A stretch of DNA of 12,900 nt from a virus, in UHGV virus genome UHGV-0200016. The stretch is one strand, 5' to 3'. Numbering within the stretch: position 1 is the stretch's first letter; each line of letters opens with the position of its first letter. The position numbers and the translations under genes were made by a program. This document shows, piece after piece, positions 1,270-12,900 of the stretch. Under the pieces are notes generated by a model, which saw only the letters and a list, made by a program, of their open reading frames with translations, made no database searches and had not been told where the DNA came from.

Positions 1270-1296
1270 AAAAAATAAGCCCGTGTAAGGGAGATT
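1270..1296. other. attL core (P2 att core, 27 bp)
   Basis: Exact 27-mer AAAAAATAAGCCCGTGTAAGGGAGATT, identical to the copy at 11555-11581, lying 80 bp from the integrase stop. It matches the P2 att core as I recall it. Confidence 0.75.
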
Positions 1297-1375
1297 TAGG
1301 GTGTCACCAGTAGGGGCTTTCAACGGTACAATGCGGGTTTGAGCGGCATAAATTACCACTGAAAGCCCTTAAACG

Positions 1376-2389
1376 TTACTCTACTGTGGACACTGTGTGG
1401 ACACTCTCGACCTCAGTACCACCTCTTAGCGGATTAAGAGAAATGGCGTCCTGAAGGTACTCTGGCGCAAAATGAGCGTAAACCATAGTTTGCTCAATCC
1501 GCGTGTGACCTAGTATCCGTTGTAGCGTGATAATACTTCCTCCATTAATCATGAAATGAGTGGCAAAGCTGTGCCTTAGTGCATGTGTAGCTTGCCCCAT
1601 TGGCAAATCCGGTTTTATTGCTTTCATTGTTCGTCTGAAGCGAGGGTAATCAGCATCAGGGAATAAAAAACCTCGTTTGTTATCCGCGATCATTTTGGCA
1701 ACAGCCTCTGAGATCGGGACGGTGCGTGGTTTGTTTGTTTTCGTTTTAACAAACGTGACGCGGTTATGGATGATATTTTCTGCTTTCAAACGAGCTGCTT
1801 CTCCCCAACGTGCTCCAGTACTCAGGCAAAGAATCGCAATCTTTTTGTTGTCGCCGTCAAGAGCAGCAAGCAGTAAGGCAATTTCTTCCTGCGTGAGATA
1901 GCCTGTGTCTGGTTTTTCCTCCTTAAGCCTTTTTGTCCCTCTGATAGGGTGCTCACCAAAGAATAACTCCGCTTCAATCAGGGCTGTAAACATGCCGCTA
2001 ATACATGTTAAATCACGATTGATACTCGAAGGTTTAATACCCTGACTTCTTCGGGTGGCGCAGTACTGGCTGATAAGCGATTTCGTAATTTGAAATGCGC
2101 ATGGGTCATTCGTTATTTTTGTGAAGATTTCAATTTTCCCAAGATTAGATTTCCCATGCTCTTCGTGTTTACCCTTTAAATCCCACCAGATCTGTGTCAG
2201 CTCCGACAGACGTCGCTTGTCTGTTGGTTTTGATAGCCATTCTTTATTGTGGTGGTTGTACAACGTGTATTTCTCGAAAGCGACAGCTTCGCTTTTCTTA
2301 TCAAACTTCCTACGGATGCGTTTTCCATTACGTCCAGTAGGGCGGATGTCCACTTCATATCGACCATCATCGAGTTTTTTGATTGCCAT
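1376..2389 (-). CDS. int: P2-type tyrosine integrase, 337 aa
   Basis: ORF track 337 aa: MAIKKLDDGRYEVDIRPTGRNGKRIRRKFDKK ... HALRHSFATHFMINGGSIITLQRILGHTRIEQTMVYAHF. It carries the tyrosine-recombinase R..HxxR..Y box and is close to residue-for-residue my recollection of P2 Int. Confidence 0.95.
   Translation of the reverse strand: MAIKKLDDGRYEVDIRPTGRNGKRIRRKFDKKSEAVAFEKYTLYNHHNKEWLSKPTDKRRLSELTQIWWDLKGKHEEHGKSNLGKIEIFTKITNDPCAFQITKSLISQYCATRRSQGIKPSSINRDLTCISGMFTALIEAELFFGEHPIRGTKRLKEEKPDTGYLTQEEIALLLAALDGDNKKIAILCLSTGARWGEAARLKAENIIHNRVTFVKTKTNKPRTVPISEAVAKMIADNKRGFLFPDADYPRFRRTMKAIKPDLPMGQATHALRHSFATHFMINGGSIITLQRILGHTRIEQTMVYAHFAPEYLQDAISLNPLRGGTEVESVHTVSTVE
1385..1404. promoter_or_regulatory. 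Tandem TGTGGACAC direct repeats; probable Int arm-type binding sites (P arm), inside the 3' end of int
   Basis: tgtggacac at 1385-1393 and 1396-1404, 11 bp apart. A matching pair with the same spacing lies on the other arm at 11496-11514. P2 Int arm sites are, from memory, direct repeats of roughly this consensus. Confidence 0.5.
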
Positions 2390-2504
2390 CAGAAAACCCT
2401 CCGAGTGGTGTGTTTTTTTGCGACTACTAATCGCTTTTTTCGTGGTGGCTGAAATTTAGCCACCAATAGTAGGCACTTGTGATGAATATATTCACGATGA
2501 ATTG

Positions 2505-2804
2505 TTAACCAGTCTTTTGACCGGAGTGGGGCGACGTTGTTTCGTTTTGCCCAAAGTGTGCGAGAGCGGGCGCAATTTGCCCGGACTCAGGAGCGATCTG
2601 ATTGGTCATGAACCATAAAGTGTATTTGGTGAATTGTGGGGTCTGCAGGATGTTCATCATGACATCTGTTGGAGGTGTTGAACGACCACTTTCATAGTAA
2701 CTCAGCGTGCCATACGGAACCCCTGTTAAATCAGCAAGTTGTTGTCTGCTCAAATACTCTGATTTTCGCATTAAGACTATCTTCTCGCTTATCGTGTTTG
2801 ACAT
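2505..2804 (-). CDS. C: P2 immunity repressor C, 99 aa
   Basis: ORF track 99 aa: MSNTISEKIVLMRKSEYLSRQQLADLTGVPYGTLSYYESGRSTPPTDVMMNILQ... It has an HTH, sits between int and cox and is divergent from cox, as in P2. Confidence 0.9.
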   Translation of the reverse strand: MSNTISEKIVLMRKSEYLSRQQLADLTGVPYGTLSYYESGRSTPPTDVMMNILQTPQFTKYTLWFMTNQIAPESGQIAPALAHFGQNETTSPHSGQKTG

Positions 2805-2918
2805 GGTGTTTAGATCTCAATAGTATTTAGTTTAGATGTAGATTGTTTAGTGCTTGGATGTGGGCACTAAAAGGCATTATAAGACATTAAACGCAATTCA
2901 TGAGGGCTAGAGGACGAC
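2805..2918. promoter_or_regulatory. P2 Pc/Pe divergent promoter and operator (lysogeny/lysis switch) region
   Basis: A 114-bp AT-rich intergenic region between divergent C and cox start codons, containing reiterated TTTAG elements (tatttagtttagatgtagattgtttagtg, 2823-2852). Exact operator boundaries not determined. Confidence 0.5.
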
Positions 2919-3527
2919 ATGAGCAAGCAAGTAACACTCATGACTGATGCGATTCCTTATCAGGAGTTCGCAAAACTAATAGGAAAATCGACAGGAGCGG
3001 TTCTCGGCGCGCGTCATATTCATATCACCAGAACGACGGACTGGCGCATTGTTCCGAAAGTTCCGGTCGTGGAGCCTTTAACTTTAAAAAGCGGCATCGC
3101 CGCGCCTCGGAGTCCTGTCAATAACTGTGGAAAGCTCACCGGTGGTGATACTTCGTTACCGGCTCACACACCTTCTGAGCACGCCGCAGCAGTGCTTAAT
3201 CTGGTTGATGACGGTGTTATTGAATGGAATGAACCGGAGGTCGTGAGGGCGCTCAGGGGGGCATTAAAACACGACCTGAGAACACCAAACCGTCAGCAAA
3301 GAAACGGAAGCCCGTTAAAACCACATGAAATTGCACCATCGGCCAGACTGACCCGGTCGGAAAGAATGCAAATTACCCGTATCCGCGTTGACCTTGCTCA
3401 GAACGGTATCAGGCCGCAGCGATGGGAGCTTGAGGCGCTGGCGCGTGGCGCGACCGTAAATTATTACGGGAAATCTTTCAATTATCAGGTCGCTGATGAG
3501 TGGCCTGGATTTTTGTTACCCATTTGA
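2919..3527 (+). CDS. cox N-terminus (about 28 codons) fused in frame to an unrelated 174-codon reading frame, possibly the 3' part of an early/replication gene; probable deletion product
   Basis: ORF track 202 aa. The first 28 residues, MSKQVTLMTDAIPYQEFAKLIGKSTGAV, match P2 Cox (a 91-aa protein). From about nt 3003 the sequence departs completely (LGARHIHITRTTDW...) and continues to 3527. SD agagga lies upstream of the ATG. Confidence 0.6.
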   Translation: MSKQVTLMTDAIPYQEFAKLIGKSTGAVLGARHIHITRTTDWRIVPKVPVVEPLTLKSGIAAPRSPVNNCGKLTGGDTSLPAHTPSEHAAAVLNLVDDGVIEWNEPEVVRALRGALKHDLRTPNRQQRNGSPLKPHEIAPSARLTRSERMQITRIRVDLAQNGIRPQRWELEALARGATVNYYGKSFNYQVADEWPGFLLPI

Positions 3528-3943: not shown

Positions 3944-4518
3944 ATCTCCTCCTGTAAGCAGAGGGCAATTTCCGCCGATATATGCGCTTCTAAGGCGGAG
4001 TTACTATTTAGCGAAGTCTTGCCCTGAAATAATGCTCTGTTTAAACGCAAAGTGATCTGGCATATCACCGAACAGAGAGCCTGAACAACACAACATATAG
4101 TATGTCGTTGTTTCTGGTTGCATTTTATGTTGTGTAATCCTGGTTTTGCATCAAGGATGTTTGAGCTTTTTTTGATATAGCTCAAAGTAAAAAGCAGAGA
4201 CTACGGATGATAAGGTATTGAAAGCAATGTAAATTTTTTAAAGTTATTGGCGGCTAAAAAATGCACGGTTTCAATATGGTGGACTTAAATAAGCAATTAA
4301 AAAAGTCATAAATATCACTAAAATCATGGTGTTACGTTTTTTTTGTGGGAGCTGCGGTGACGCTTAAGTTGATTTGTCATTAAATAAGCCGTGCATGCAA
4401 CAAGTGAATGTTTTTGCATGCGTCGGGGATGCCCGTTCCGGCTGCTTGCGGTCAGAGCTGGTGCGGATCCATAGTATCTATGCAACTGCATTAAAACCGC
4501 CACATGAAGCGGGCGGGC

Positions 4519-4537
4519 GAGGCGGGGAAAGCACTGC
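4519..4537. other. P2-type cos site (19-nt cohesive-end sequence)
   Basis: ggcgaggcggggaaagcac matches the P2/186 cohesive-end sequence as I recall it. It sits in a GC-rich island of about 165 bp (roughly 4380-4545) between AT-rich segments. Confidence 0.6.
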
Positions 4538-4694
4538 GCGCAAAATGTTCTTGAAATATTTGTGACATAAGCTAAGACACAAAATGATTGAAGGGCAGAG
4601 CAAATCCTACAGTCCTATGCTATTGTCTCATGTAATGCAGATAAGTTGAAAATTATCTTAAAATATAAGAGTAAAGACATTAAAAGGATTGGTT

Positions 4695-6956
4695 ATGAAT
4701 AATAACTCTAAGTTATTAAGCTCTATCTCGGTTGAATCTGATTTCGAGAACCTTATAAAACTATATGCAAATGAGTTATTTGGTGGTGAAACATATCTGA
4801 TCGGTGGTCCTTGGGATAATGGAAAGGATTTGGTAATAAAAAAGGGGAATAGAGAGTTAAAGCAAGCTGTACAAATATCTATTCAAGAGAAAAATATTGA
4901 AAGTAAGATTGCTCAAGATATTAAAAAAGTGGCGAAATTGGTTGATGATCATTATTACCCGCCTGTATTATATTTTTTTTGGAGTCATTCAATATCTGAG
5001 CATTTATTGGATAAGATAAGAACAAATGCTCTTAAGGAAGATTTGATTAGATTGGAGTTTTATGATGCCAAACGGATCTCTCAAGATATTACAGATAAAT
5101 ACCCAGGGTTATTGAATTACTTAATAAAAGATATACATAAGATAAGTTCTAATACTGAAGATGCAATTAACTTGCAACAAAGAGCATTTTATGAATATTT
5201 ATTGTTAAGCAAAGATAGTGCTAATTTAAAAAATGAAATAATAAAAGCTAGTATTATGTCTAATTTATATGATGGCGGGAAGTCTGCTGATGATATTCTA
5301 GAGAATCTAAAAGGTGTTAGTCTTACAAAACGTAGTTTACAGGGTAGACTGCAAAACCTAATTCATCAAAATAAAATTAGATTGAATGATGGTATATATA
5401 GCCTGTCACCAGAGGAAATTAAAAAGCTTGAGAATATAAATCTCCGTGAAATTGTCAGAAAAGAAGAGTTGTTATCAGTAATAAATAATGAGTTGCCCAG
5501 AAATACAAGTAAGAATCTGGCTGTTCAAGTTGTTGATTTAATAATAAAGGCTTATGAAGAATCAATAAATGTCCAATTAACAGAAAGTAAATTTGAGCCT
5601 CCAAAATTACAGATATTCAAAACTATAGTACATAATTTAAAGGTGTTGATACGGCAGGAATATGATTTGGATGATGAGTCTTCGGATGCTTTAGCAAAAA
5701 AGCTAATGGAGTTGGCTGGTCAAAATGACTATTTATCCGAGCATTGCTCTGCTAAATTATGTGTGAATCTTTTAAGTGATCGGAAATTAGAGAAATATAT
5801 TGAAAATAAAAATTTTTATATCTACTTTGATGCGCCTGTTCTTATTCCATATTTGATAACTCTTATGTTTGGAGATTTTGAGCTTTTTGATAAGTCGATT
5901 AAAAATATAAATTTACTGAGAGAGTGCATAAATCCCCTCAAAAATAAACATCTGAGAGTTTCTAATGAACATTTTGAAGAAACTGCAAGGCACTACTCTG
6001 AAGCTGAAAAATTAAGTCAGTTTGTAACTGAAGATTTAATTAGTCAACTTGGTGAGTCGAAAAATGTATACTTTAATGTTTATATGCGGTGGAAAAACAA
6101 ACAGCCTAAACGTACAGATTTTTACGATTTTACTTATGCTTTTCTAGGGTTGGATAAAGATGATATTTATGCGGGGTATAAGCATGACACATTTGCGCAA
6201 TGCATTCATAATTTACTAGCGTCAGCAAATATTGTTGTAATTGATAATAAAGACTCGGTGTCACAAGACTTTGTATTTAAAATAAAGCAAAAACTTAAAA
6301 GGGATTTGAATTCTTCACGTCCCGTTCGAGCCATAGAAAATGATGTTATATGTGCTGCAACTTTGAGTGATGAAACCCTACATCTTGATTCCAATGGTTA
6401 CTTCAGTACTCCCATGCTAATAACGCTTGATAGATCTCAATATCTATTGAGAAGCATAGTAAGAAATGAAAGGAGACATGCTGAATGGTTGGTTTATACC
6501 CCTCAAAGAGCAATTGAACGTCTTTCCTTGGTGGGTTTAAAAATATCATCGGAATCGTTAAAGGATGGTGTTTTAGCAACCATATCAGAAGAATATTTCT
6601 TTAAAGAAAGTTCCAGTAGTTTGATTGATACTTTGGCTATTATCATTGGAGATAATCAAGCAAGGCAAGGAGATGTTATTAGGCTTGCATCGCTTTTAAA
6701 AAGAAAGGTCAATGAGGAATCTATTGAGAATTCAGAAATTGATATTGAACACTATAATAACATTAGTTATGTGCTTCTTTTCATTCATCGTGAATTTAAA
6801 TCTGAATTTTCAAATATAATAAAAATTTTTGCTGAGGATAGTAGGCGAGATAAACTGGTTGAAGTTTTGTTATCCACTATTCAAGGAGTTTTTGATGAGA
6901 GTAAAAAGGAAATCTTGCGCTCAAATATAGGACGGTTGTTGGCTGAAATGGGATGA
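4695..6956 (+). CDS. Hypothetical protein of about 753 aa with an N-terminal restriction-endonuclease-like (Mrr-type) motif; candidate anti-phage defence protein
   Basis: ORF track 4689..6956 (755 aa from a TTG). I prefer the ATG at 4695, which has SD aagga 6 nt upstream. The gene is strongly AT-rich and Lys/Asn/Ile-rich, unlike the flanking P2 genes. Residues about 25-100 (FENLIKLYANELFGGETYLIGGPWDNGKDLVIKKGNRELKQAVQIS...PVLYFFWSHSIS) resemble the Mrr catalytic-core pattern. A hairpin terminator follows at 6973-7005. Confidence 0.85.
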   Translation: MNNNSKLLSSISVESDFENLIKLYANELFGGETYLIGGPWDNGKDLVIKKGNRELKQAVQISIQEKNIESKIAQDIKKVAKLVDDHYYPPVLYFFWSHSISEHLLDKIRTNALKEDLIRLEFYDAKRISQDITDKYPGLLNYLIKDIHKISSNTEDAINLQQRAFYEYLLLSKDSANLKNEIIKASIMSNLYDGGKSADDILENLKGVSLTKRSLQGRLQNLIHQNKIRLNDGIYSLSPEEIKKLENINLREIVRKEELLSVINNELPRNTSKNLAVQVVDLIIKAYEESINVQLTESKFEPPKLQIFKTIVHNLKVLIRQEYDLDDESSDALAKKLMELAGQNDYLSEHCSAKLCVNLLSDRKLEKYIENKNFYIYFDAPVLIPYLITLMFGDFELFDKSIKNINLLRECINPLKNKHLRVSNEHFEETARHYSEAEKLSQFVTEDLISQLGESKNVYFNVYMRWKNKQPKRTDFYDFTYAFLGLDKDDIYAGYKHDTFAQCIHNLLASANIVVIDNKDSVSQDFVFKIKQKLKRDLNSSRPVRAIENDVICAATLSDETLHLDSNGYFSTPMLITLDRSQYLLRSIVRNERRHAEWLVYTPQRAIERLSLVGLKISSESLKDGVLATISEEYFFKESSSSLIDTLAIIIGDNQARQGDVIRLASLLKRKVNEESIENSEIDIEHYNNISYVLLFIHREFKSEFSNIIKIFAEDSRRDKLVEVLLSTIQGVFDESKKEILRSNIGRLLAEMG

Positions 6957-7047: not shown

Positions 7048-8082
7048 TTAGGTATCGCAAGTATCTAGTGAGTAGTTTTTAAAGCGGATGACCTCCTGAC
7101 CGAGCCAGCCGTTTATCTCGCGGATCCTGTCCTGTAACGGGATAAGCTCATTGCGGACAAAGACCTTTGCCACTTTCTCAATATCGCCCAGTGACCCGAC
7201 GTTCTCCGGCTTGCCGCCCATCAACTGAAAGGGGATGCGGTGCGCGTCCAGTAGGTCAGCGGCGCTGGCTTTTTTGATATTAAAAAAATCGTCCTTCGTT
7301 GCGACTTCACTGAGCGGGATAATTTTAATGCCGTCGGCTTTCCCCTGTGGGGCATAGAGAAACAGATTTTTAAAGTTGTTGCGGCCTTTCGACTTCACCA
7401 TGTTTTCGCGGAGCATTTCGATATCGTTGCGATCCTGCACGGCATCAGTGACGTACATGATGTATCCGGCATGTGCGCCGTTTTCGTAATACTTGCGGCG
7501 GAACAGCGTGGCCGACTCATTCAGCCAGGCAGAGTTAAGGGCGCTGAGATATTCCGGCAGGCCGTACAACTCCTGATTAATATCCGGCTCCAGCAGGTGA
7601 AACACGGAGCCGGGCGCGAAGGCTGTCGGTTCGTTGAAGGACGGCACCCACCAGTAAACATCCTCTTCCACCCCACGGCGGGTATATTTTGCCGGTGAGG
7701 TTTCCAGTCTGATGACCTTACCGGTGGTGCTGTAACGCTTTTCCAGAAACGCATTACCAAACACCAGAAAATCCAGCACAAAGCGGCTGAAATCCTGTTG
7801 TGAAAGCCACGGATGCGGGATAAATGTCGAGGCCAGAATATTACGTTTGACGTAAATCGGTGAGCTGTGATGTACGGCAGCACGCAGGCTTTTTGCCAGA
7901 CCGGTAAAGCTGACCGGTGGCTCATACCATCTGCCGTTACTGATGCACTCGACGTAATCCAGAATGTCACGGCGGTCGAGTACCGGCACCGGCTCACCAA
8001 AGGTGAATGCCTCCATTTTCGGGGCGCTGGCGGTCATTGTTTTTGCCGCAGGTTGCGGTGTTTTCCCTTTTTTCTTGCTCAT
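7048..8082 (-). CDS. Q: P2 portal (capsid portal) protein Q, 344 aa
   Basis: ORF track 344 aa: MSKKKGKTPQPAAKTMTASAPKMEAFTFGEPVPVLDRRDILDYVECISNGRWYEPP... It matches my recollection of P2 gpQ in sequence and length, and its start overlaps the stop of the upstream P fragment (TGATG). Confidence 0.9.
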   Translation of the reverse strand: MSKKKGKTPQPAAKTMTASAPKMEAFTFGEPVPVLDRRDILDYVECISNGRWYEPPVSFTGLAKSLRAAVHHSSPIYVKRNILASTFIPHPWLSQQDFSRFVLDFLVFGNAFLEKRYSTTGKVIRLETSPAKYTRRGVEEDVYWWVPSFNEPTAFAPGSVFHLLEPDINQELYGLPEYLSALNSAWLNESATLFRRKYYENGAHAGYIMYVTDAVQDRNDIEMLRENMVKSKGRNNFKNLFLYAPQGKADGIKIIPLSEVATKDDFFNIKKASAADLLDAHRIPFQLMGGKPENVGSLGDIEKVAKVFVRNELIPLQDRIREINGWLGQEVIRFKNYSLDTCDT

Positions 8083-8360
8083 CAGTAAAACTCCAGAATG
8101 GTGGATGTCAGCGGGGTGCTGATACCGGCGGTGAGTGGCTCATTTAACAGGGCGTGCATGGTCGCCCAGGCGAGGTCGGCGTGGCTGGCTTCCTCGCTGC
8201 GGCTGGCCTCATAGGTGGCGCTGCGTCCGCTGCTGGTCATGGTCTTGCGGATAGCCATAAACGAGCTGGTGATGTCGGTGGCGCTGACGTCGTATTCCAG
8301 ACAGCCACGGCGGATAACGTCTTTTGCCTTGAGCACCATTGCGGTTTTCATTTCCGGCGT
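8082..8360 (-). pseudogene. P: 3' fragment of terminase ATPase gene P (about 90 C-terminal codons); the 5' part is deleted
   Basis: A minus-strand open frame ends at 8082 (...LTAGISTPLTSTILEFY) with its stop overlapping the Q start, as for P2 P-Q. P is about 590 aa in P2, so only the 3' end is present. Assignment rests on synteny and coupling, not on confirmed homology. The upper boundary is approximate. Confidence 0.5.
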
Positions 8361-9245
8361 GTACCCGCACCGGATGTGGTCGAGGAGCTGGACTTTGAAA
8401 CCATTCTTGCCGAACGCAAGGCGACACTGATTTCCCTTTACCCGGAAGACCAGCAGGAGGCGGTCGCCCGTACCCTGACGCTGGAATCTGAGCCTCTCGT
8501 CAAACTGCTGGAGGAAAATGCTTATCGTGAGCTTATCTGGCGTCAGCGTGTGAATGAGGCCGCACGGGCGGTGATGCTGGCCTGTGCTGCCGGTAATGAC
8601 CTTGATGTGATTGGTGCCAATTACAACACCACGCGCCTGATTATCACCCCGGCAGATGATTCGACTATCCCGCCGACACCGGCAGTGATGGAGTCTGACA
8701 CCGATTACCGGCTGCGTATTCAGCAGGCGTTTGAAGGTTTAAGCGTCGCCGGGTCGGTGGGTGCCTATCAGTATCATGGCCGCAGTGCCGACGGGCGTGT
8801 CGCGGATATCTCTGTCACCAGTCCGTCTCCGGCCTGTGTCACCATCTCTGTGCTGTCACGTGAAAATAACGGTGTCGCTTCCGAAGACCTGCTGGCGGTG
8901 GTGCGTAACGCCCTTAATGGCGAGGACGTCAGGCCGGTGGCCGACCGCGTGACCGTGCAGTCTGCCGCCATCGTTGAATACCAGATAAACGCCACGCTGT
9001 ATCTTTACCCTGGTCCCGAAAGCGAACCCATTCGCGCTGCCGCCGTGAAAAAACTGGAAGCGTATATCACGGCACAGCACCGGCTGGGGCGCGACATCCG
9101 TCTGTCTGCCATTTATGCCGCTTTGCATGTGGAAGGCGTACAGCGTGTCGAACTGGCTGCACCGCTGGCCGACATCGTGCTCAACAATACGCAGGCGTCT
9201 TTCTGTACCGAATACCACGTCGTGACCGGAGGCTCGGATGAGTGA
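8361..9245 (+). CDS. J: Baseplate assembly protein J, apparently missing its first roughly 10 codons and its native start and promoter
   Basis: ORF track 8154..9245. From VPAPDVVEELDFETILAERKATLISLYPEDQQEAV... onward it matches P2 gpJ as I recall it. The 70 codons upstream in frame (MHGRPGEVGVAG...) are antisense to the P fragment and are not J-like. Confidence 0.75.
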   Translation, partial: VPAPDVVEELDFETILAERKATLISLYPEDQQEAVARTLTLESEPLVKLLEENAYRELIWRQRVNEAARAVMLACAAGNDLDVIGANYNTTRLIITPADDSTIPPTPAVMESDTDYRLRIQQAFEGLSVAGSVGAYQYHGRSADGRVADISVTSPSPACVTISVLSRENNGVASEDLLAVVRNALNGEDVRPVADRVTVQSAAIVEYQINATLYLYPGPESEPIRAAAVKKLEAYITAQHRLGRDIRLSAIYAALHVEGVQRVELAAPLADIVLNNTQASFCTEYHVVTGGSDE

Positions 9246-9849
9246 TTCGCGACTGCTGCCGACCGGCTCATCACCGCTTGAGGTCGCCGCCGCAAAAGCC
9301 TGTGCGGAAATTGAAAAAACGCCGGTCAGTATTCGTGAGTTGTGGAACCCGGACACCTGCCCGGCAAATCTGCTGCCGTGGCTGGCGTGGTCATTTTCGG
9401 TTGACCGCTGGGATGATAAGTGGCCGGAAGCGACAAAACGCGCTGTTATCCGCGATGCGTATTTCATTCACTGCCATAAGGGCACTATTGGTGCGATTCG
9501 CCGTGTGGTGGAGCCACTCGGCTATCTGATTGAGGTGAGGGAGTGGTGGCAGCTCAACGAGGAGCCGGGGACGTTCCGTATCGTTGTCGGCGTGCTTGAG
9601 CAGGGTATTACCGAGGAAATGTATCAGGAGCTGGAGCGCCTCGTTGCTGATGCAAAACCGGCAAGCCGCCATCTGACGGGACTGGCTATCAGTTTAAGTA
9701 CAACCGGCAACATTTTTGCCGGTGCGGGATGCTATCACGGCGACGCCCTGACGGTTTATCCCTACACCCCGGAGGCCATTATTGTCGGAGGGGATTATTT
9801 CCCGGCCTCGGCCATTCATTTAATTGATAACCTGAGAGTAAACGCATGA
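9238..9849 (+). CDS. I: Baseplate protein I (P2 gpI-like), 203 aa
   Basis: ORF track 203 aa: MSDSRLLPTGSSPLEVAAAKACAEIEKTPVSIRELWNPDTCPANLLPWLAWSF... The ATG overlaps the J stop (ATGA) and the stop overlaps the next gene's start, giving the J-I-H order of P2. Confidence 0.85.
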   Translation: MSDSRLLPTGSSPLEVAAAKACAEIEKTPVSIRELWNPDTCPANLLPWLAWSFSVDRWDDKWPEATKRAVIRDAYFIHCHKGTIGAIRRVVEPLGYLIEVREWWQLNEEPGTFRIVVGVLEQGITEEMYQELERLVADAKPASRHLTGLAISLSTTGNIFAGAGCYHGDALTVYPYTPEAIIVGGDYFPASAIHLIDNLRVNA

Positions 9850-11153
9850 CAGTGAAATACTACGCCATTCTGACTAATCAGGGCGCAGCACGGCTGGCTA
9901 ACGCGACGATGCTCGGCAGTAAGCTGAATCTGACGCAAATGGCCGTTGGTGATGCGAATGGTGTATTACCGACACCAGACCCGGCACAGACAAAACTGAT
10001 TAACCAGAAACGCATTGCACCGCTGAATATTCTGAGCGTTGACCCTAACAATCAGAGCCAGATTATTGCGGAGCAAATTATCCCTGAAAACGAGGGAGGA
10101 TTCTGGATCCGTGAGATTGGGCTTTATGATGATGAAGGCGTACTCATTGCGGTGGCGAACTGCCCGGAAACGTACAAACCGCAGTTGCAGGAAGGCAGTG
10201 GTCGTACCCAGACTATCCGCATGATTCTGGTTGTCACGAATACCGAAGCTATTACGCTGAAAATCGACCCGTCGGTGGTACTGGCGACCCGTAAATACGT
10301 GGATGATGAAGTCCTGGAATTAAGGCTGTATGTGGATGAACAGATGAGAAACCACATTGCCGCACAGGATCCTCATACCCAGTATGCACAGAAACATAAT
10401 CCGACATTTACCGGAGAACCAAAAGCGCCGACGCCTGCCGCAGGAAATAACACCACGCGGATTGCGACCACTGCGTTTGTACAGGCTGCTATTACCGCTC
10501 TGATTAACGGCGCGCCAGCCACGCTGGACACACTGAAAGAAATTGCCGCGGCCATTAACAATGACCCGAAATTCAGCACCACCATTAACAATGCGCTGTC
10601 AGGTAAGCAGCCACTGGATGAGACGCTGACTCATTTGAGTGGAAAGGATGTTGGAGCCTACACCGGCGTAACGGCAAAGTGGTTACACACCAAAGACCCG
10701 AAGCCGCAAAAGCAGAAGGTAAAACTGAAACGCAAAAAGAAAGAGAAACACCTGCGCGCACTGGAGCACCCGAAAGCGAAACCGGTCAGGCAGAAGAAAG
10801 CGCCAAAAGTACCGGAAGCGCGCGAAGGTGAATACATGGCCGGTGAGGCTGACAACGTTTTTGCCCTGACCACGGTATATGCCACGAAAGCACAGGCCAT
10901 GCGTGCTGCTCAGGCGAAGTGGGATAAACTGCAACGGGGCGTTGCGGAGTTCTCCATCATCCTGGCTACCGGTCGTGCAGATATTTACACGGAAACACCG
11001 GTCAGAGTGTCAGGCTTTAAGCGCGTCATAGACGAGCAGGACTGGACAATCACTAAGGTGACACATTTTCTGAATAATAGCGGCTTCACGACGTCCTTGG
11101 AGCTTGAGGTCAGGCTTTCTGATGTGGAGTACGAAACAGAAGATGATGAGTGA
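9846..11153 (+). CDS. Chimeric ORF: tail-fibre H-like N-terminal domain (about 270 aa) fused to the C-terminal part of tail protein D; deletion product
   Basis: ORF track 435 aa. The N-terminus (MTVKYYAILTNQGAARLA...GGFWIREIGLYDDEGVLIAVANCPETYKPQLQEGSGRTQT...) has the P2 gpH-type tail-fibre N-terminal signature. The C-terminus (...PVRVSGFKRVIDEQDWTITKVTHFLNNSGFTTSLELEVRLSDVEYETEDDE) is the gpD end that immediately precedes ogr in P2. A Lys-rich linker lies between. G, Z/fun, FI, FII, E, T, U and most of D are absent. Confidence 0.65.
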   Translation: MTVKYYAILTNQGAARLANATMLGSKLNLTQMAVGDANGVLPTPDPAQTKLINQKRIAPLNILSVDPNNQSQIIAEQIIPENEGGFWIREIGLYDDEGVLIAVANCPETYKPQLQEGSGRTQTIRMILVVTNTEAITLKIDPSVVLATRKYVDDEVLELRLYVDEQMRNHIAAQDPHTQYAQKHNPTFTGEPKAPTPAAGNNTTRIATTAFVQAAITALINGAPATLDTLKEIAAAINNDPKFSTTINNALSGKQPLDETLTHLSGKDVGAYTGVTAKWLHTKDPKPQKQKVKLKRKKKEKHLRALEHPKAKPVRQKKAPKVPEAREGEYMAGEADNVFALTTVYATKAQAMRAAQAKWDKLQRGVAEFSIILATGRADIYTETPVRVSGFKRVIDEQDWTITKVTHFLNNSGFTTSLELEVRLSDVEYETEDDE

Positions 11154-11234
11154 TGTTTTGTTTTTATCTGTTTGTTTTATAAGGATAAATTAACTAAAAT
11201 GGCACCATTAACAAAACCGGAAGAGGTGCTCGCG

Positions 11235-11453
11235 ATGTTTCATTGTCCTTTATGCCAGCATGCCGCACATGCGCGTACAAGCCGCTATATCACTGACACG
11301 ACAAAAGAGCGTTATCACCAGTGCCAGAACGTGAATTGCAGCGCCACGTTCATCACTTATGAGTCGGTACAGCGATACATCGTGAAGCCGGGAGAAGTCC
11401 ACGCCGTGAGGCCGCACCCGTTGCCGTCAGGGCAGCAAATTATGTGGATGTAA
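11235..11453 (+). CDS. ogr: P2 late-gene transcriptional activator Ogr (zinc-finger), 72 aa
   Basis: MFHCPLCQHAAHARTSRYITDTTKERYHQCQNVNCSATFITYESVQRYIVKPGEVHAVRPHPLPSGQQIMWM with the C-x2-C...C-x4-C zinc finger. The ORF track begins 21 codons upstream (11172), but the canonical start is the ATG at 11235. Confidence 0.9.
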   Translation: MFHCPLCQHAAHARTSRYITDTTKERYHQCQNVNCSATFITYESVQRYIVKPGEVHAVRPHPLPSGQQIMWM

Positions 11454-11464
11454 TTACAAACAGA

Positions 11465-11490
11465 AAGCCCCTCAGTCGAGGGGCTTTTTT
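11465..11490 (+). terminator. Rho-independent terminator of ogr
   Basis: aagcccctc-agtc-gaggggctt followed by tttt, 12 bp after the ogr stop. Confidence 0.7.
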
Positions 11491-11495
11491 GTCGA

Positions 11496-11514
11496 TGTGG
11501 TCAATGTGTGGACG
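11496..11514. promoter_or_regulatory. Direct repeats TGTGGTCA / TGTGGACG; probable Int arm-type binding sites (P' arm)
   Basis: tgtggtca at 11496-11503 and tgtggacg at 11507-11514, 11 bp apart, mirroring the pair at 1385-1404 on the int-proximal arm. Confidence 0.45.
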
Positions 11515-11554
11515 TGACCAGAAATAAATCCTTTTATTTCAATTTGTTGTACGT

Positions 11555-11581
11555 AAAAAATAAGCCCGTGTAAGGGAGATT
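11555..11581. other. attR core (P2 att core, 27 bp)
   Basis: Exact copy of AAAAAATAAGCCCGTGTAAGGGAGATT, followed by AT-rich non-phage DNA leading into the convergent host gene. Confidence 0.75.
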
Positions 11582-11725
11582 ACACAGGCTAAGGAGGTGG
11601 TTCCTGGTACAGCTAGCATTTTATGGGTTATGTTTTTCAGCGAAACGGATGATAACCTTAATAAATGCAGCTGTATGTGATCGGTTTCTAAGAATTTTCC
11701 ATCCGGGAAAAATAATCGAAATTAA

Positions 11726-12900
11726 TCACTTACCGTGTGGGTTACGCGTGGTTTCCCCGGAGAAATTACGCATCAGCAGAGCGTAATTGAGCTCAAGATC
11801 CTGCGGGACCGGGAGCCACACAGTATAACCATCGCCTGGTGCGACCGGCATCGCTTCACCTTTGGCGTTTTCCATGTGCTCAAGGGTAAAGTTAATGTTG
11901 CCTTGCGGCGTCATCAGCTCAAGGCTGTCGCCAACGGAGAATTTATTTTTCACCGCTACCGCCGCGAGGTCCCCCTTGCGCTCACCGGTAAACTCACCAA
12001 CAAACTGCTGGCGGTCAGAAACTGAATAACCGTATTCGTAGTTCTGATAATCGTCGTGAGTATGACGACGCAGGAAACCTTCGGTATAGCCACGATGCGC
12101 CAGACCTTCCAGAGTTTCCAGCAGGCTGGTATCGAACGGTTTGCCCGCAGCGGCGTCATCGATAGCTTTACGGTAAACCTGTGCGGTGCGTGCGCAATAG
12201 TAGAAAGATTTAGTACGGCCTTCGATTTTCAGCGAATGCACGCCCATTTTGGTCAGGCGTTCTACATGGGCGATGGCGCGCAGATCTTTCGAGTTCATGA
12301 TGTAAGTGCCGTGCTCATCTTCAAACGCGGTCATATACTCGCCCGGACGCTGGGCTTCTTCGATCATAAACACTTTGTCGGTTGGCGCGCCGATACCCAG
12401 CGTCGGCTCAACATTTTGCACCGGAATCGGCTCGTACTTGTGTACGATGTTGCCAACGTCATCTTCTTTCCCTTCCTGGACGTTGTACTCCCAGCGGCAG
12501 GCGTTGGTGCAGGTACCCTGGTTCGGATCGCGCTTGTTGATATAGCCAGAGAGCAGGCAGCGACCGGAGTAGGCCATGCACAGTGCGCCGTGAACGAAGA
12601 TCTCGATCTCCATATCCGGCACCTGATTGCGGATCTCTTCAATCTCTTCCAGCGACAGCTCGCGAGAGAGGATCACGCGGGTCAGGCCCATTTGCTGCCA
12701 GAATTTCACCGTCGCCCAGTTTACGGCGTTAGCCTGCACCGAGAGGTGGATCGGCATTTCAGGGAAGTGCTCACGCACCAGCATAATCAGCCCTGGATCG
12801 GACATAATCAGCGCATCCGGCCCCATTTCCACCACCGGTTTCAGGTCACGGATAAAGGTTTTCAGCTTGGCGTTGTGCGGTGCAATGTTGACCACGACAT
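11726..12900 (-). CDS. yegQ: U32-family peptidase-like protein (YegQ/TrhP-like), 5'-partial (N-terminus beyond window end)
   Basis: ORF track 389 aa: ...EIFVHGALCMAYSGRCLLSGYINKRDPNQGTCTNACRW... contains the U32 peptidase signature (E-x-F-x2-G-[SA]-[LIVM]-C-x4-G-x-C-x-[LIVM]-S). It is convergent with ogr, as yegQ is with ogrK in E. coli K-12. Gene symbol is from recollection and synteny. Confidence 0.8.
   Translation of the reverse strand, partial: VVVNIAPHNAKLKTFIRDLKPVVEMGPDALIMSDPGLIMLVREHFPEMPIHLSVQANAVNWATVKFWQQMGLTRVILSRELSLEEIEEIRNQVPDMEIEIFVHGALCMAYSGRCLLSGYINKRDPNQGTCTNACRWEYNVQEGKEDDVGNIVHKYEPIPVQNVEPTLGIGAPTDKVFMIEEAQRPGEYMTAFEDEHGTYIMNSKDLRAIAHVERLTKMGVHSLKIEGRTKSFYYCARTAQVYRKAIDDAAAGKPFDTSLLETLEGLAHRGYTEGFLRRHTHDDYQNYEYGYSVSDRQQFVGEFTGERKGDLAAVAVKNKFSVGDSLELMTPQGNINFTLEHMENAKGEAMPVAPGDGYTVWLPVPQDLELNYALLMRNFSGETTRNPHGK

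What the first reader, a model, noticed from the sequence alone, without database searches (positions are those of the whole stretch)
8082..8370. Deletion junction joining the 3' end of terminase gene P to baseplate gene J (loss of O-N-M-L-X-Y-K-R-S-V-W)
Seen in sequence: the minus-strand P-like frame ends at the Q start (TGATG overlap at 8080-8084), yet J-like protein sequence begins on the plus strand by about 8361 (VPAPDVVEELDFE...) with no J start codon or RBS. The ORF-track N-terminus of the J frame (MHGRPGEVGVAG...) is simply the antisense of the P fragment read in an open frame. Established knowledge: in P2 about 9 kb of capsid, terminase small-subunit, lysis and tail genes lie between P and J. 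Inference: a single deletion removed them, leaving 'J, I and the H'-'D chimera without their late promoter.
Basis: partly seen in the sequence, partly recalled or inferred. Interest (0 to 1): 0.4.

Follow-up and report, generated by a model that had tools for sequence, protein, structure and literature searches.

The report
Prophage deletion scar at recurrent breakpoint
This is the scar of one roughly 9-kb deletion that removed the head, packaging, lysis and early tail genes of a decaying P2-like prophage in E. coli. That is ordinary, except that its left end falls on the same nucleotide used by at least ten other independent deletions in related prophages.

Summary
Window 8082-8363 (minus strand) holds the last 93 codons of terminase gene P. 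Window 8362 onward (plus strand) is baseplate gene J from its 26th nucleotide. The two segments meet at a shared TA (8362-8363), with no filler DNA and no insertion sequence. Relative to phage P2, 9,816 bp are missing (P2 1503-11318). Relative to an intact prophage at the same yegR/trhP site (E. coli C2), 8,941 bp are missing. The lost DNA covers 84% of P, the P/O and V late promoters, O, N, M, L, X, Y, K, lysABC, R, S, V, W and J codons 1-8. It is one of three deletion scars in a 10.3-kb P2-like remnant that is fixed in one E. coli lineage (at least 168 data sets).

The unexpected result is that the left end is not random. P2 coordinate 1502 (GGCGTGTA|) is the left end of 11 different deletions on diverged phage backgrounds. 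A second site 47 bp away (GGCGGATA|, 1455) is the left end of 5 more. Nearly all junctions sit on a shared TA. Control positions gave none. The mechanism is unresolved. I found no report of this hot spot.

The parts
8082..8363 (-). 3' fragment of terminase large-subunit gene P: the last 93 codons plus the stop codon. It has no start codon or promoter of its own.
   Evidence: 97.9% identical to P2 199-1502 together with Q. Translation matches the gpP C-terminus. Annotated as a pseudogene 'missing N-terminus' in 1218KP.
8362..8363 (.). Deletion junction: a TA shared by both parental sequences. It corresponds to P2 1501-1502 and to P2 11317-11318.
   Evidence: Base-by-base comparison with P2 and with the intact prophage of E. 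coli C2 at the same locus.
8364..9245 (+). Baseplate gene J lacking its first 25 nt (codons 1-8), its ribosome-binding site and its promoter. Codon 9 is the hybrid GTA at 8361-8363.
   Evidence: Pfam Baseplate_J domains are listed on the product.
8154..8360 (+). Open-frame leader upstream of 'J. It is the antisense of the P fragment, not J sequence. GTG codons at 8154 and 8181 are used by some gene callers.
7048..8082 (-). Portal gene Q, intact. Its start codon overlaps the P stop codon.
9238..9849 (+). Tail gene I, intact.
9846..11153 (+). In-frame H'-'D chimera from a second deletion. The junction is the TG at 10652-10653.
   Evidence: Pfam Phage_tail_fib covers residues 1-150 and Phage_GPD covers 254-412. 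blastn against L004 and P2 places the junction.
11235..11453 (+). ogr (ogrK), the late-gene activator. It is retained although none of its target promoters remains.
2919..3527 (+). In-frame cox'-'A fusion from a third deletion (P2 26095-29784 missing). The junction is at 3002-3007.
1270..1296 (+). attL: the 27-bp P2 att core.
11555..11581 (+). attR: the 27-bp P2 att core, which marks the right end of the 10.3-kb prophage remnant.
4516..4534 (+). cos: the 19-nt cohesive-end sequence.

Best explanation
Window 8362-8363 is the scar of one deletion formed by illegitimate recombination, meaning joining without long homology. It lies in a P2-like prophage integrated at the yegR/trhP attachment site of E. 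coli.

Shown:
- The deletion joined a TA inside terminase gene P (P2 coordinate 1502) to a TA in codon 9 of baseplate gene J (P2 11318).
- It removed about 9 kb: most of P, the P/O and V late promoters, and the head, small-terminase, lysis, tail-completion and early baseplate genes.
- Two further deletions (cox'-'A and H'-'D) reduced a roughly 30-kb phage to a 10.3-kb remnant with no late promoter. This remnant is inherited vertically in one clone.
- The left end is one of two nucleotide-precise hot spots, GGCGTGTA| at P2 1502 and GGCGGATA| at P2 1455. Independent deletions in diverged P2-like prophages repeatedly start at these sites and run rightward to many different partners. They are almost always joined on a shared TA.

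Inferred, and weakly supported (about 35% as stated):
- The DNA at these two sites suffers a position-specific break, nick or replication arrest that leaves an end at ...TA.
- That end is joined, or primes synthesis, wherever 2-5 nt of microhomology is found downstream.
- Only rightward deletions are recovered because they remove lethal late and lysis functions while keeping repressor and integrase.
For: The deletion itself:
- Colinear P2 segments abut with a 2-nt overlap and no inserted DNA.
- An intact prophage at the same locus in strain C2 shows both parental sequences.
- The same junction occurs in the assembled 1218KP chromosome record, in a metagenome contig and in at least 168 data-set blocks, always in the same neighbourhood.

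The hot spot:
- Scans not anchored on the site gave 14 events with a left end in the last ~480 nt of P: BLAST of E. coli complete genomes and a search for C-terminal gpP fragments. Seven are at 1502, four at 1454-1457 and three elsewhere. The binomial probability is about 5e-12.
- Anchored pattern scans added further partners.
- Distinct partners of 1502 are P 2117, P 2537, V 10392, V 10670, J 11318, H 12758, two sites in tail-fibre-assembly genes, FI 18477, U 22307 and ogr 24053. Distinct partners of 1455 are V 10670, the V 3' end, J 11395, FI 18477 and T 21847.
- Left flanks differ by 1.6-3.4% between events, so the events are independent.
- The same kind of scan at four control positions (P2 823, 1352, 1392, 1433) found no P2-related junction.
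- A 7-nt homology (CGGATGT) lies close to both parental sites of the window's event but was not used. This argues for a defined end rather than a free homology search.
- Other junctions in the same degraded prophages carry ordinary 1-6-nt microhomologies of any sequence.
Against: - The cause of the hot spot is not identified. The sites show no significant single-strand structure. They show no convincing resemblance to the P2 Int core or arm sites, to the A-protein nick site, or to invertase crossover sites.
- Part of the event list comes from scans anchored on the site, which cannot by themselves show enrichment.
- The rightward polarity rests on a single strict reciprocal pattern scan with no hits and on a selection argument. 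It was not tested properly.
- Whether the window's three deletions happened in the integrated prophage or in a phage genome before it integrated cannot be told.
- Whether 'single deletion' is literally one event cannot be proven from an end product.
Confidence: 0.85

Rival explanations
1. An enzyme-catalysed reaction made the junction. A recombinase or transposase-like enzyme would recognise the site in P and exchange strands with any target that carries the same central TA dinucleotide, as serine recombinases or TA-targeting transposases do.
For: - Almost every junction at both hot spots lies on a TA shared by both parents, and extra homology is no longer than chance predicts.
- One fixed site pairs with many loosely defined partners.
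- V 10670 and FI 18477 each recur as partners.
- CGGATA/TATCCG lies exactly on the junction TA at 5-6 of 20 TA breakpoint sites, against 1.9% of all TA sites in P2 (P = 3e-5, tested post hoc).
Against: - No candidate enzyme fits. The tail-fibre invertase crossover sites are cix-like with a central TT/AA.
- The P2 Int core matches the site only 11/18, and 76 places in P2 match as well or better. The Int arm sites (TGTGGACA) are unrelated.
- No transposable element is present at any junction.
- The partner sites share no motif beyond TA.
- One event type (L028/L192) joins 5 nt to the right on ACGAA, and one (L342) joins on a single T. This is more like microhomology use than a fixed crossover.
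Confidence: 0.2
2. The deletion happened before integration. Incoming or replicating phage DNA was cut by a nuclease (a restriction enzyme, or P2 terminase at a pseudo-cos site), rejoined, and the shortened genome then lysogenised. Fixed cut sites would explain the recurrence, and the need for int, C and attP would explain the polarity.
For: - All the defective prophages seen keep int, C, cos and the att-proximal ends.
- P2 1495-1513 is one of the three best matches in the whole P2 genome to the 19-nt cos sequence (13/19, same strand).
- Several TA breakpoints lie in GATATC or in sites one base away from it.
Against: - The second hot spot has no resemblance to cos (10/19; 735 sites match as well or better).
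- Terminase nicks would fall at 1494/1495 and 1513/1514, not at 1502.
- Usually only one of the two partner sites is GATATC-like, and hot spot 1 itself is not (3/6).
- Blunt-end rejoining is inefficient in E. coli (from general knowledge).
- The intact relative in strain C2 sits at the same chromosomal site as the remnant, which is equally compatible with decay in place.
Confidence: 0.12
3. There is no hot spot. The window's deletion has random end points, and the coincidences come from biased searching or from shared ancestry.
For: - Pattern scans anchored on the site can only find events at that site.
- Some events sit in prophages with the same non-P2 type of integrase (L018, L034, L157).
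Against: - Unanchored sampling still places 11 of 14 events in two 7-nt zones.
- Control positions gave no events.
- Left flanks differ by 20-43 substitutions per 1,250 nt.
- Eleven different right-hand partners cannot descend from one junction.
Confidence: 0.02
4. The deletion is an adjacent deletion mediated by an insertion sequence, or the junction is an assembly artefact.
For: IS3 and IS903B copies lie near the prophage in 1218KP.
Against: - There is no insertion-sequence DNA at or near the junction.
- The IS3 copy lies outside attL and is absent from another carrier of the same junction (L348).
- The junction was recovered independently in at least 168 data-set blocks, which include both a genome assembly and a metagenome assembly.
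Confidence: 0.01

Closest known systems
Cryptic P2 remnant of E. coli K-12 (ogrK plus the gpD fragment yegZ, next to yegQ/trhP)
   Same: - It occupies the same chromosomal attachment site next to trhP.
- It keeps the same right-hand end: the 3' part of D, ogr and attR. PGAP names the window's gene ogrK.
- It is likewise the product of internal deletion of a P2-like prophage.
   Different: - The K-12 remnant is only about 0.6 kb (from memory: Barreiro and Haggard-Ljungquist 1992). The window keeps 10.3 kb, including int, C, ori, cos, a cargo gene, Q, 'P, 'J, I and H'.
- From that remembered size, its D breakpoint would lie near P2 23744, not at the window's P2 23453, so the two remnants would not be successive stages of one decay series. 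This was not checked against the K-12 sequence here.
Prophage decay ('grounding' or domestication) by deletion
   Same: - Loss of lysis, head and packaging genes.
- Retention of immunity, integrase and cargo genes.
- Several short-microhomology junctions in the same element.
   Different: Decay is normally described as random deletion filtered by selection. Here one end is reused to the nucleotide in many independent lineages.
Known deletion hot spots at sites of replication arrest or nicking: terB, and the origin nick sites of rolling-circle plasmids and phages such as pC194 and M13 (from memory: Bierne, Ehrlich and Michel 1991; Michel and Ehrlich 1986)
   Same: - One fixed, nucleotide-precise end is joined to many variable partners.
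- Little or no homology is used at the joint.
- The events are polar.
   Different: - No Tus/Ter site, origin or nick site is known or detectable at P2 1455 or 1502.
- The P2 A-protein nick sequence (GCGCCTCG|GAGTCC, P2 29892) is unrelated.
P2 eduction and Int-promoted deletions at secondary att sites
   Same: These are prophage-associated deletions with a fixed phage end.
   Different: Eduction uses the att core as one partner. None of the junctions here involves the att core, and the hot spots resemble it only weakly.

Membership tests
P2-like (Peduovirus) prophage remnant | The 27-bp P2 att core at both ends, flanking host genes at a known P2 attachment site. | tested here: met
   Identical cores at 1270-1296 and 11555-11581. 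The flanking genes are yegR and trhP.
P2-like (Peduovirus) prophage remnant | Gene order and sequence colinear with P2 (int, C, cox, A, cos, Q, P, J, I, H, D, ogr). | tested here: met
   Six P2-colinear blocks at 92.8-100% identity in P2 prophage order, plus one weak (67%) match inside H. An intact relative lies at the same locus.
Simple deletion by illegitimate (short-microhomology) recombination | The two flanks are colinear, in the same orientation, and contiguous in the intact relative except for the missing segment. | tested here: met
   P2 1502 joins 11317. In strain C2 (locus L320), 12464 joins 21404.
Simple deletion by illegitimate (short-microhomology) recombination | No filler DNA and no mobile element at the joint, and a few shared bases. 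| tested here: met
   Only a TA is shared, and nothing is inserted.
Simple deletion by illegitimate (short-microhomology) recombination | End points distributed without site preference. | tested here: not met
   11 distinct deletions share P2 1502 and 5 share P2 1455. Binomial P is about 5e-12 for the unanchored sample.
IS-mediated adjacent deletion | An insertion-sequence end at the junction. | tested here: not met
   The junction joins P sequence directly to J sequence.
P2 Int site-specific recombination at secondary sites | Both partner sites resemble the att core/overlap, or att itself is one partner. | tested here: not met
   Hot spot 1 matches 11/18 (76 sites in P2 as good or better) and hot spot 2 matches 8/18. 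I saw no core resemblance at the J partner by eye (not scored). No event involves att.
Cin/Hin/Gin-type invertase recombination at quasi-sites | A crossover site with the half-site TTNTCNNAAACC and a central dinucleotide matching the true sites. | tested here: not met
   The true sites in a relative are TTCTCGCATACC TT GGTTTGGGAGAA, with a central TT/AA. The hot spots are unrelated and centre on TA.
Terminase cleavage at a pseudo-cos site | Resemblance to the 19-nt cos sequence, with break positions at its borders. | tested here: inconclusive
   Hot spot 1 matches 13/19, among the top three in the genome. Hot spot 2 does not match. The junction lies 8 nt inside the 19-mer.
Replication-arrest or nick-site deletion hot spot | A physical strand break or fork pause at the fixed end. 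| not testable with these tools
   This needs break or pause mapping in P2 lysogens. Folding of the single strands gave no significant structure.

The most novel reading that the evidence does not exclude
A sequence-specific DNA-cutting or strand-transfer activity acts at GGCGKRTA / (G)CGGATA-type sites near the 3' end of the P2 terminase gene. The activity could be host- or phage-encoded and is not yet identified. By starting polar deletions of the late region, it repeatedly converts P2-like prophages into harmless remnants that keep immunity, integrase and cargo genes. Prophage 'grounding' in this family would then be partly a site-directed process rather than random decay.
Probability: 0.25. 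Interest if true: 0.75.

Novelty: new member of a known kind. Interest (0 to 1): 0.5.

Why it matters
As a single locus this is routine. It documents how a P2-like prophage at the K-12 'ogrK' site was disarmed, and it shows that the annotated 'baseplate assembly protein' and 'tail-collar fiber' genes there are truncated or chimeric leftovers with no late promoter.

The wider point is the recurrence. Decay of temperate phages in bacterial genomes is usually modelled as random deletion plus selection. Here two nucleotide positions in the terminase gene account for most deletions that enter the late region from the left, in unrelated E. coli strains and in metagenomes.

If a specific break, pause or enzyme underlies this, it would be:
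- a new, experimentally tractable example of site-directed genome instability;
- a predictor of how P2-like prophages, which carry many anti-phage defence cargo genes, become fixed as immobile defence islands;
- a simple PCR-testable marker for studying prophage inactivation in real time.

Tried and rejected
- Single-strand hairpins at the hot spots: z-scores between -1.1 and +1.4, not significant.
- Tail-fibre invertase: its crossover sites are cix-like with a central TT/AA.
- P2 Int: the core match to hot spot 1 is unremarkable (11/18, with 76 equal or better sites), and the arm sites (TGTGGACA) are unrelated.
  - The best pseudo-core site in P2 (18/27, at 22308) happens to adjoin the partner of the L028/L192 junction. 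However, that joint lies about 15 nt from where the crossover would be, so I treat it as coincidence.
- P2 A-protein ori nick sequence: unrelated.
- Motif test: the third copy of CGGCGKRTA (P2 815-823, in Q) gave no junction.
- Control scans at P2 1352, 1392 and 1433: none gave a junction in viral contigs. One event each at 1352 and 1392 later turned up in the protein-based sample.
- Reciprocal events that keep the right flank of 1502: 0 hits, but the pattern was strict.
- Search with the N-terminal 497 aa of gpP to find reciprocal truncations: it returned only full-length terminases and was uninformative.
- Genome contigs and most metagenome-contig hits to the 17-mer were chance matches in unrelated taxa and had to be filtered by flank identity.
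- EcoRV-like cutting (GAT|ATC): it fits several partner sites but not hot spot 1, and rarely fits both partners of one event.
- Gyrase: no usable consensus could be extracted from the Topo-Seq paper text, and a 4-nt stagger does not obviously give TA joints (PMC6379681).
- Literature searches for a P2 gene-P deletion hot spot found nothing.
- Pfam and PADLOC gave no hit for the 755-aa cargo ORF.
Full report
**What the window is.** The 12.9-kb window differs at one base (position 274) from the chromosome of E. coli 1218KP. blastn against phage P2 (NC_001895) resolves it into P2-colinear blocks:

| Window | P2 coordinates | Content |
|---|---|---|
| 1270-3007 | 24356-26094 | att core, int, C, first 30 codons of cox |
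| 3002-3511 | 29785-30294 | 3' end of A, including ori |
| 4487-4541 | cos region | joined cos site |
| 7060-8363 | 199-1502 | Q and the 3' end of P |
| 8362-9674 | 11317-12629 | J from nt 26, and I |
| 10652-11581 | 23453-24382 | 3' end of D, ogr, att core |

- Host genes yegR and trhP (yegQ) flank the element, and an IS3 copy lies just outside attL.
- The window is therefore a 10.3-kb remnant of a P2-like prophage with three internal deletions.
- E. coli C2 carries an intact P2-like prophage at the same site. It is 99.3-99.6% identical to the window over int-C and over Q-'P.

**Checking the finding.**
- 8080-8084 is CATCA, whose reverse complement TGATG is the P stop codon overlapping the Q start codon.
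- The minus-strand frame 8082-8366 encodes the last 93 residues of gpP.
- The plus-strand frame from 8361 reads VPAPDVVEELDFE..., which is gpJ from residue 9. Its upstream 69 codons (from GTG 8154) are the antisense of the P fragment.
- At base level the window reads ...TTTCCGGCGTG TA CCCGCACCGG.... P2 and C2 read ...GGCGTG TA GCGGAT... in P and ...ACCAGC TA CCCGCACCGG... in J. The joint is therefore a shared TA at 8362-8363, with nothing inserted.
- The missing segment is P2 1503-11318 (9,816 bp), or 8,941 bp in C2 coordinates.
- By the P2 annotation the missing segment contains codons 1-497 of P, the divergent P and O promoters with their activator site, O, N, M, L, X, Y, K, lysA, lysB, lysC, R, S, orf30, the V promoter, V, W and the first 25 nt of J.
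- No J start codon or ribosome-binding site remains. PGAP calls a 289-aa protein from GTG 8376, and other pipelines call a 354-aa protein from GTG 8181.
- A consensus scan found no promoter-like site upstream on the plus strand between 7000 and 8400.

**Context of the other scars.**
- The H'-'D chimera is real. H sequence (98% identical to relatives L004 and L253) runs to window 10653 and D sequence starts at 10652, so the two share a TG. The fusion is in frame.
- The cox'-'A joint (3002-3007) is also in frame.
- With these deletions, all four Ogr-dependent late promoters of P2 (P, O, V and F) are gone while ogr is kept.
- The junction-spanning ORF occurs in at least 168 blocks of the assembly collection, always with the same neighbours. 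One carrier lacks the IS3 copy. The remnant with all three scars is therefore fixed in a clone, and the IS3 insertion came later.

**The unexpected part: the left end recurs.** The 901-bp query across the junction was not anchored on any particular breakpoint. Besides 1218KP it picked up three other complete or near-complete E. coli genomes in which a short P fragment abuts late tail genes. Their joints are:
- ZH177: P2 1502 to V 10670.
- 1916D18: P2 1455 to V 10670.
- 700481: P2 1455 to the 3' end of V.

I then scanned public collections for the 17 bases to the left of the TA, followed by any base other than the native one. This recovered four more partners of 1502:
- P 2537 (L034).
- H 12758 (L157).
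- FI 18477 (L018).
- U 22307 (L028 and L192). This joint lies 5 nt to the right, on ACGAA.

The window's own junction also appeared in a metagenome contig (L168). The same scan design at 1455 found J 11395 (L253) and the V-end type again.

**An unanchored second sample.** Searching the protein database with the 94-aa gpP fragment returned short ORFs in which foreign N-termini are fused to gpP:
- Five clusters are fused exactly at Y498, which corresponds to P2 1502.
- Three clusters are fused at V513/I514, which corresponds to P2 1455.
- Single cases are fused elsewhere.

Fetching their DNA gave further events:
- From 1502: to P 2117, V 10392, ogr 24053 and two sites in tail-fibre-assembly genes.
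- From 1455/1454: to FI 18477 and T 21847.
- Single events from 1352, 1392 and 1427.

**Totals and statistics.**
- There are 11 distinct partners for 1502, 5 for 1455 and 3 events elsewhere in the last ~480 nt of P.
- Counting only the unanchored samples, 11 of 14 events fall in two 7-nt zones. Conditioning on the first event at each site gives a binomial P of about 5e-12.
- Left flanks of different events differ by 20-43 substitutions per 1,250 nt, as much as each differs from P2. The events are therefore independent, and eleven different right-hand ends cannot derive from one junction in any case.
- The same scan design at four other positions (P2 823, 1352, 1392, 1433) found no P2-related junction in viral contigs.

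**Properties of the joints.**
- Every joint at the two hot spots, except the L028/L192 type and L342, lies on a TA present in both parents.
- Additional shared bases (GTA, TAA, TAAC, GTAG) occur about as often as chance predicts.
- In the window's event, a 7-nt homology (CGGATGT) lies 1 nt and 7 nt downstream of the two TAs and was not used.
- V 10670 and FI 18477 were each used with both hot spots. V 10670 is also the left end of another deletion (L345).
- Other deletion joints in the same degraded prophages have ordinary microhomologies of any sequence: TG (four times, including the window's H'-'D joint), CA, AG, C, CTGA and TCGG.
- The two hot spots share CGGCGKRTA.
- The 7-mer GCGGATA occurs 12 times in P2. 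Its terminal TA lies exactly on breakpoints at 1392, 1455, 12403 and 30164. Hot spot 1 lies immediately 5' of another copy (1503-1509).
- CGGATA/TATCCG is found at 5 of 20 TA breakpoint sites, against 1.9% of all TA sites in P2 (P = 3e-5, post hoc).

**Mechanism.** The deletion itself is securely an illegitimate-recombination event. For the hot spot I could exclude several obvious agents:
- No insertion sequence lies at any joint.
- The invertase crossover sites are different.
- P2 Int core and arm sites do not fit.
- The A-protein nick sequence does not fit.
- No significant hairpin forms at either site.

Hot spot 1 is one of the three best pseudo-cos sites in P2 (13/19). However, hot spot 2 is not cos-like, and the joint lies inside the 19-mer rather than at its borders. 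I therefore treat this as unresolved.

The pattern is one fixed, nucleotide-precise end, many partners and 2-5 nt of terminal homology. It is what is seen at sites of replication arrest or strand nicking (terB, rolling-circle origins; from memory). That is my best guess, at about 35%.

A recombinase- or transposase-like reaction with a TA crossover (about 20%), and cutting of phage DNA before lysogenisation (about 12%), remain open.

The rightward polarity may simply reflect selection, because only deletions that keep C and int and remove late and lysis genes are recovered. It was not rigorously tested.

**Comparison with what is known.**
- The element belongs to the P2-like prophages and sits at the site of the K-12 ogrK/yegZ remnant, but it is a much larger remnant. 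From the remembered size of the K-12 remnant, its D breakpoint appears to differ from the window's; this was not checked against the K-12 sequence here.
- Prophage decay by deletion is well known.
- Four literature searches found no report of a recurrent breakpoint in P2 gene P.

**Verdict.** The finding is correct and, as a single locus, ordinary. Its left end, however, belongs to a previously unremarked and statistically very strong deletion hot spot in P2-like prophages. The cause of that hot spot is unknown and can be tested experimentally.

Noticed in passing
window 4689-6956 (+): A 755-aa ORF with no Pfam or PADLOC match lies between cos and the end of Q. This is the variable cargo position of P2-like phages, which holds old/tin in P2 and different genes in relatives C2, ZH177, 1916D18 and 700481. 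It could be an uncharacterised anti-phage or other cargo gene, and it is conserved in all carriers of this remnant.
   Followed up: partly
window 2919-3527 (+), junction 3002-3007: A second deletion scar. The first 29-30 codons of cox are fused in frame to the C-terminal part of replication gene A, and the region homologous to the P2 ori nick site is kept. The microhomology is TCGG within an imperfect 6-mer.
   Followed up: partly
window 9846-11153 (+), junction 10652-10653: A third scar. The tail-fibre H N-terminus is fused in frame to the gpD C-terminus, sharing TG. In the intact relative L004, the H breakpoint lies 7 nt before the cix-like crossover site of the tail-fibre invertase (L004 12362-12388).
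   Followed up: partly
window 11235-11453 and the whole remnant: ogr (ogrK) and its own promoter region are kept, but all four Ogr-dependent late promoters of P2 (P, O, V, F) have been deleted. The activator has no target left in this element.
   Followed up: partly
window 1 to about 1214: An IS3 copy lies immediately outside attL. It is absent from another carrier of the identical remnant (L348), so it was inserted after the three deletions. The only base that differs between the window and 1218KP (position 274) lies inside it.
   Followed up: partly
P2 (L002) 1392, 1455, 12403, 30164, and 1503-1509: The 7-mer GCGGATA (12 copies in P2) coincides with deletion breakpoints at four copies, with the joint on its terminal TA. 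A fifth copy starts right after hot spot 1. Near-palindromes GGGGATATCCGG (19952) and GCCGATATCCGG (about 8378) are also breakpoints.
   Followed up: partly
L028 and L192 (P2 1507 joined to 22307): The identical junction (GTGTAACGAAAAATG) occurs on left flanks that differ by 18 substitutions in 1,250 nt. Either the same deletion arose twice, or the flank was later exchanged by recombination.
   Followed up: no
L345, L034, L157, L338, L339 (related loci): Many other P2-like remnants carry three to five separate internal deletions each. V 10670 (CACGGTA|AGCGGAAT) serves as the right end in two events and as the left end in a third.
   Followed up: partly
protein P0072: An ORF fuses the N-terminal 83 residues of gpD (plus strand in P2) to the gpP C-terminus from about K536 (minus strand). 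This implies an inversion-type junction a few bases from the GCGGATA copy at P2 1386-1392.
   Followed up: no
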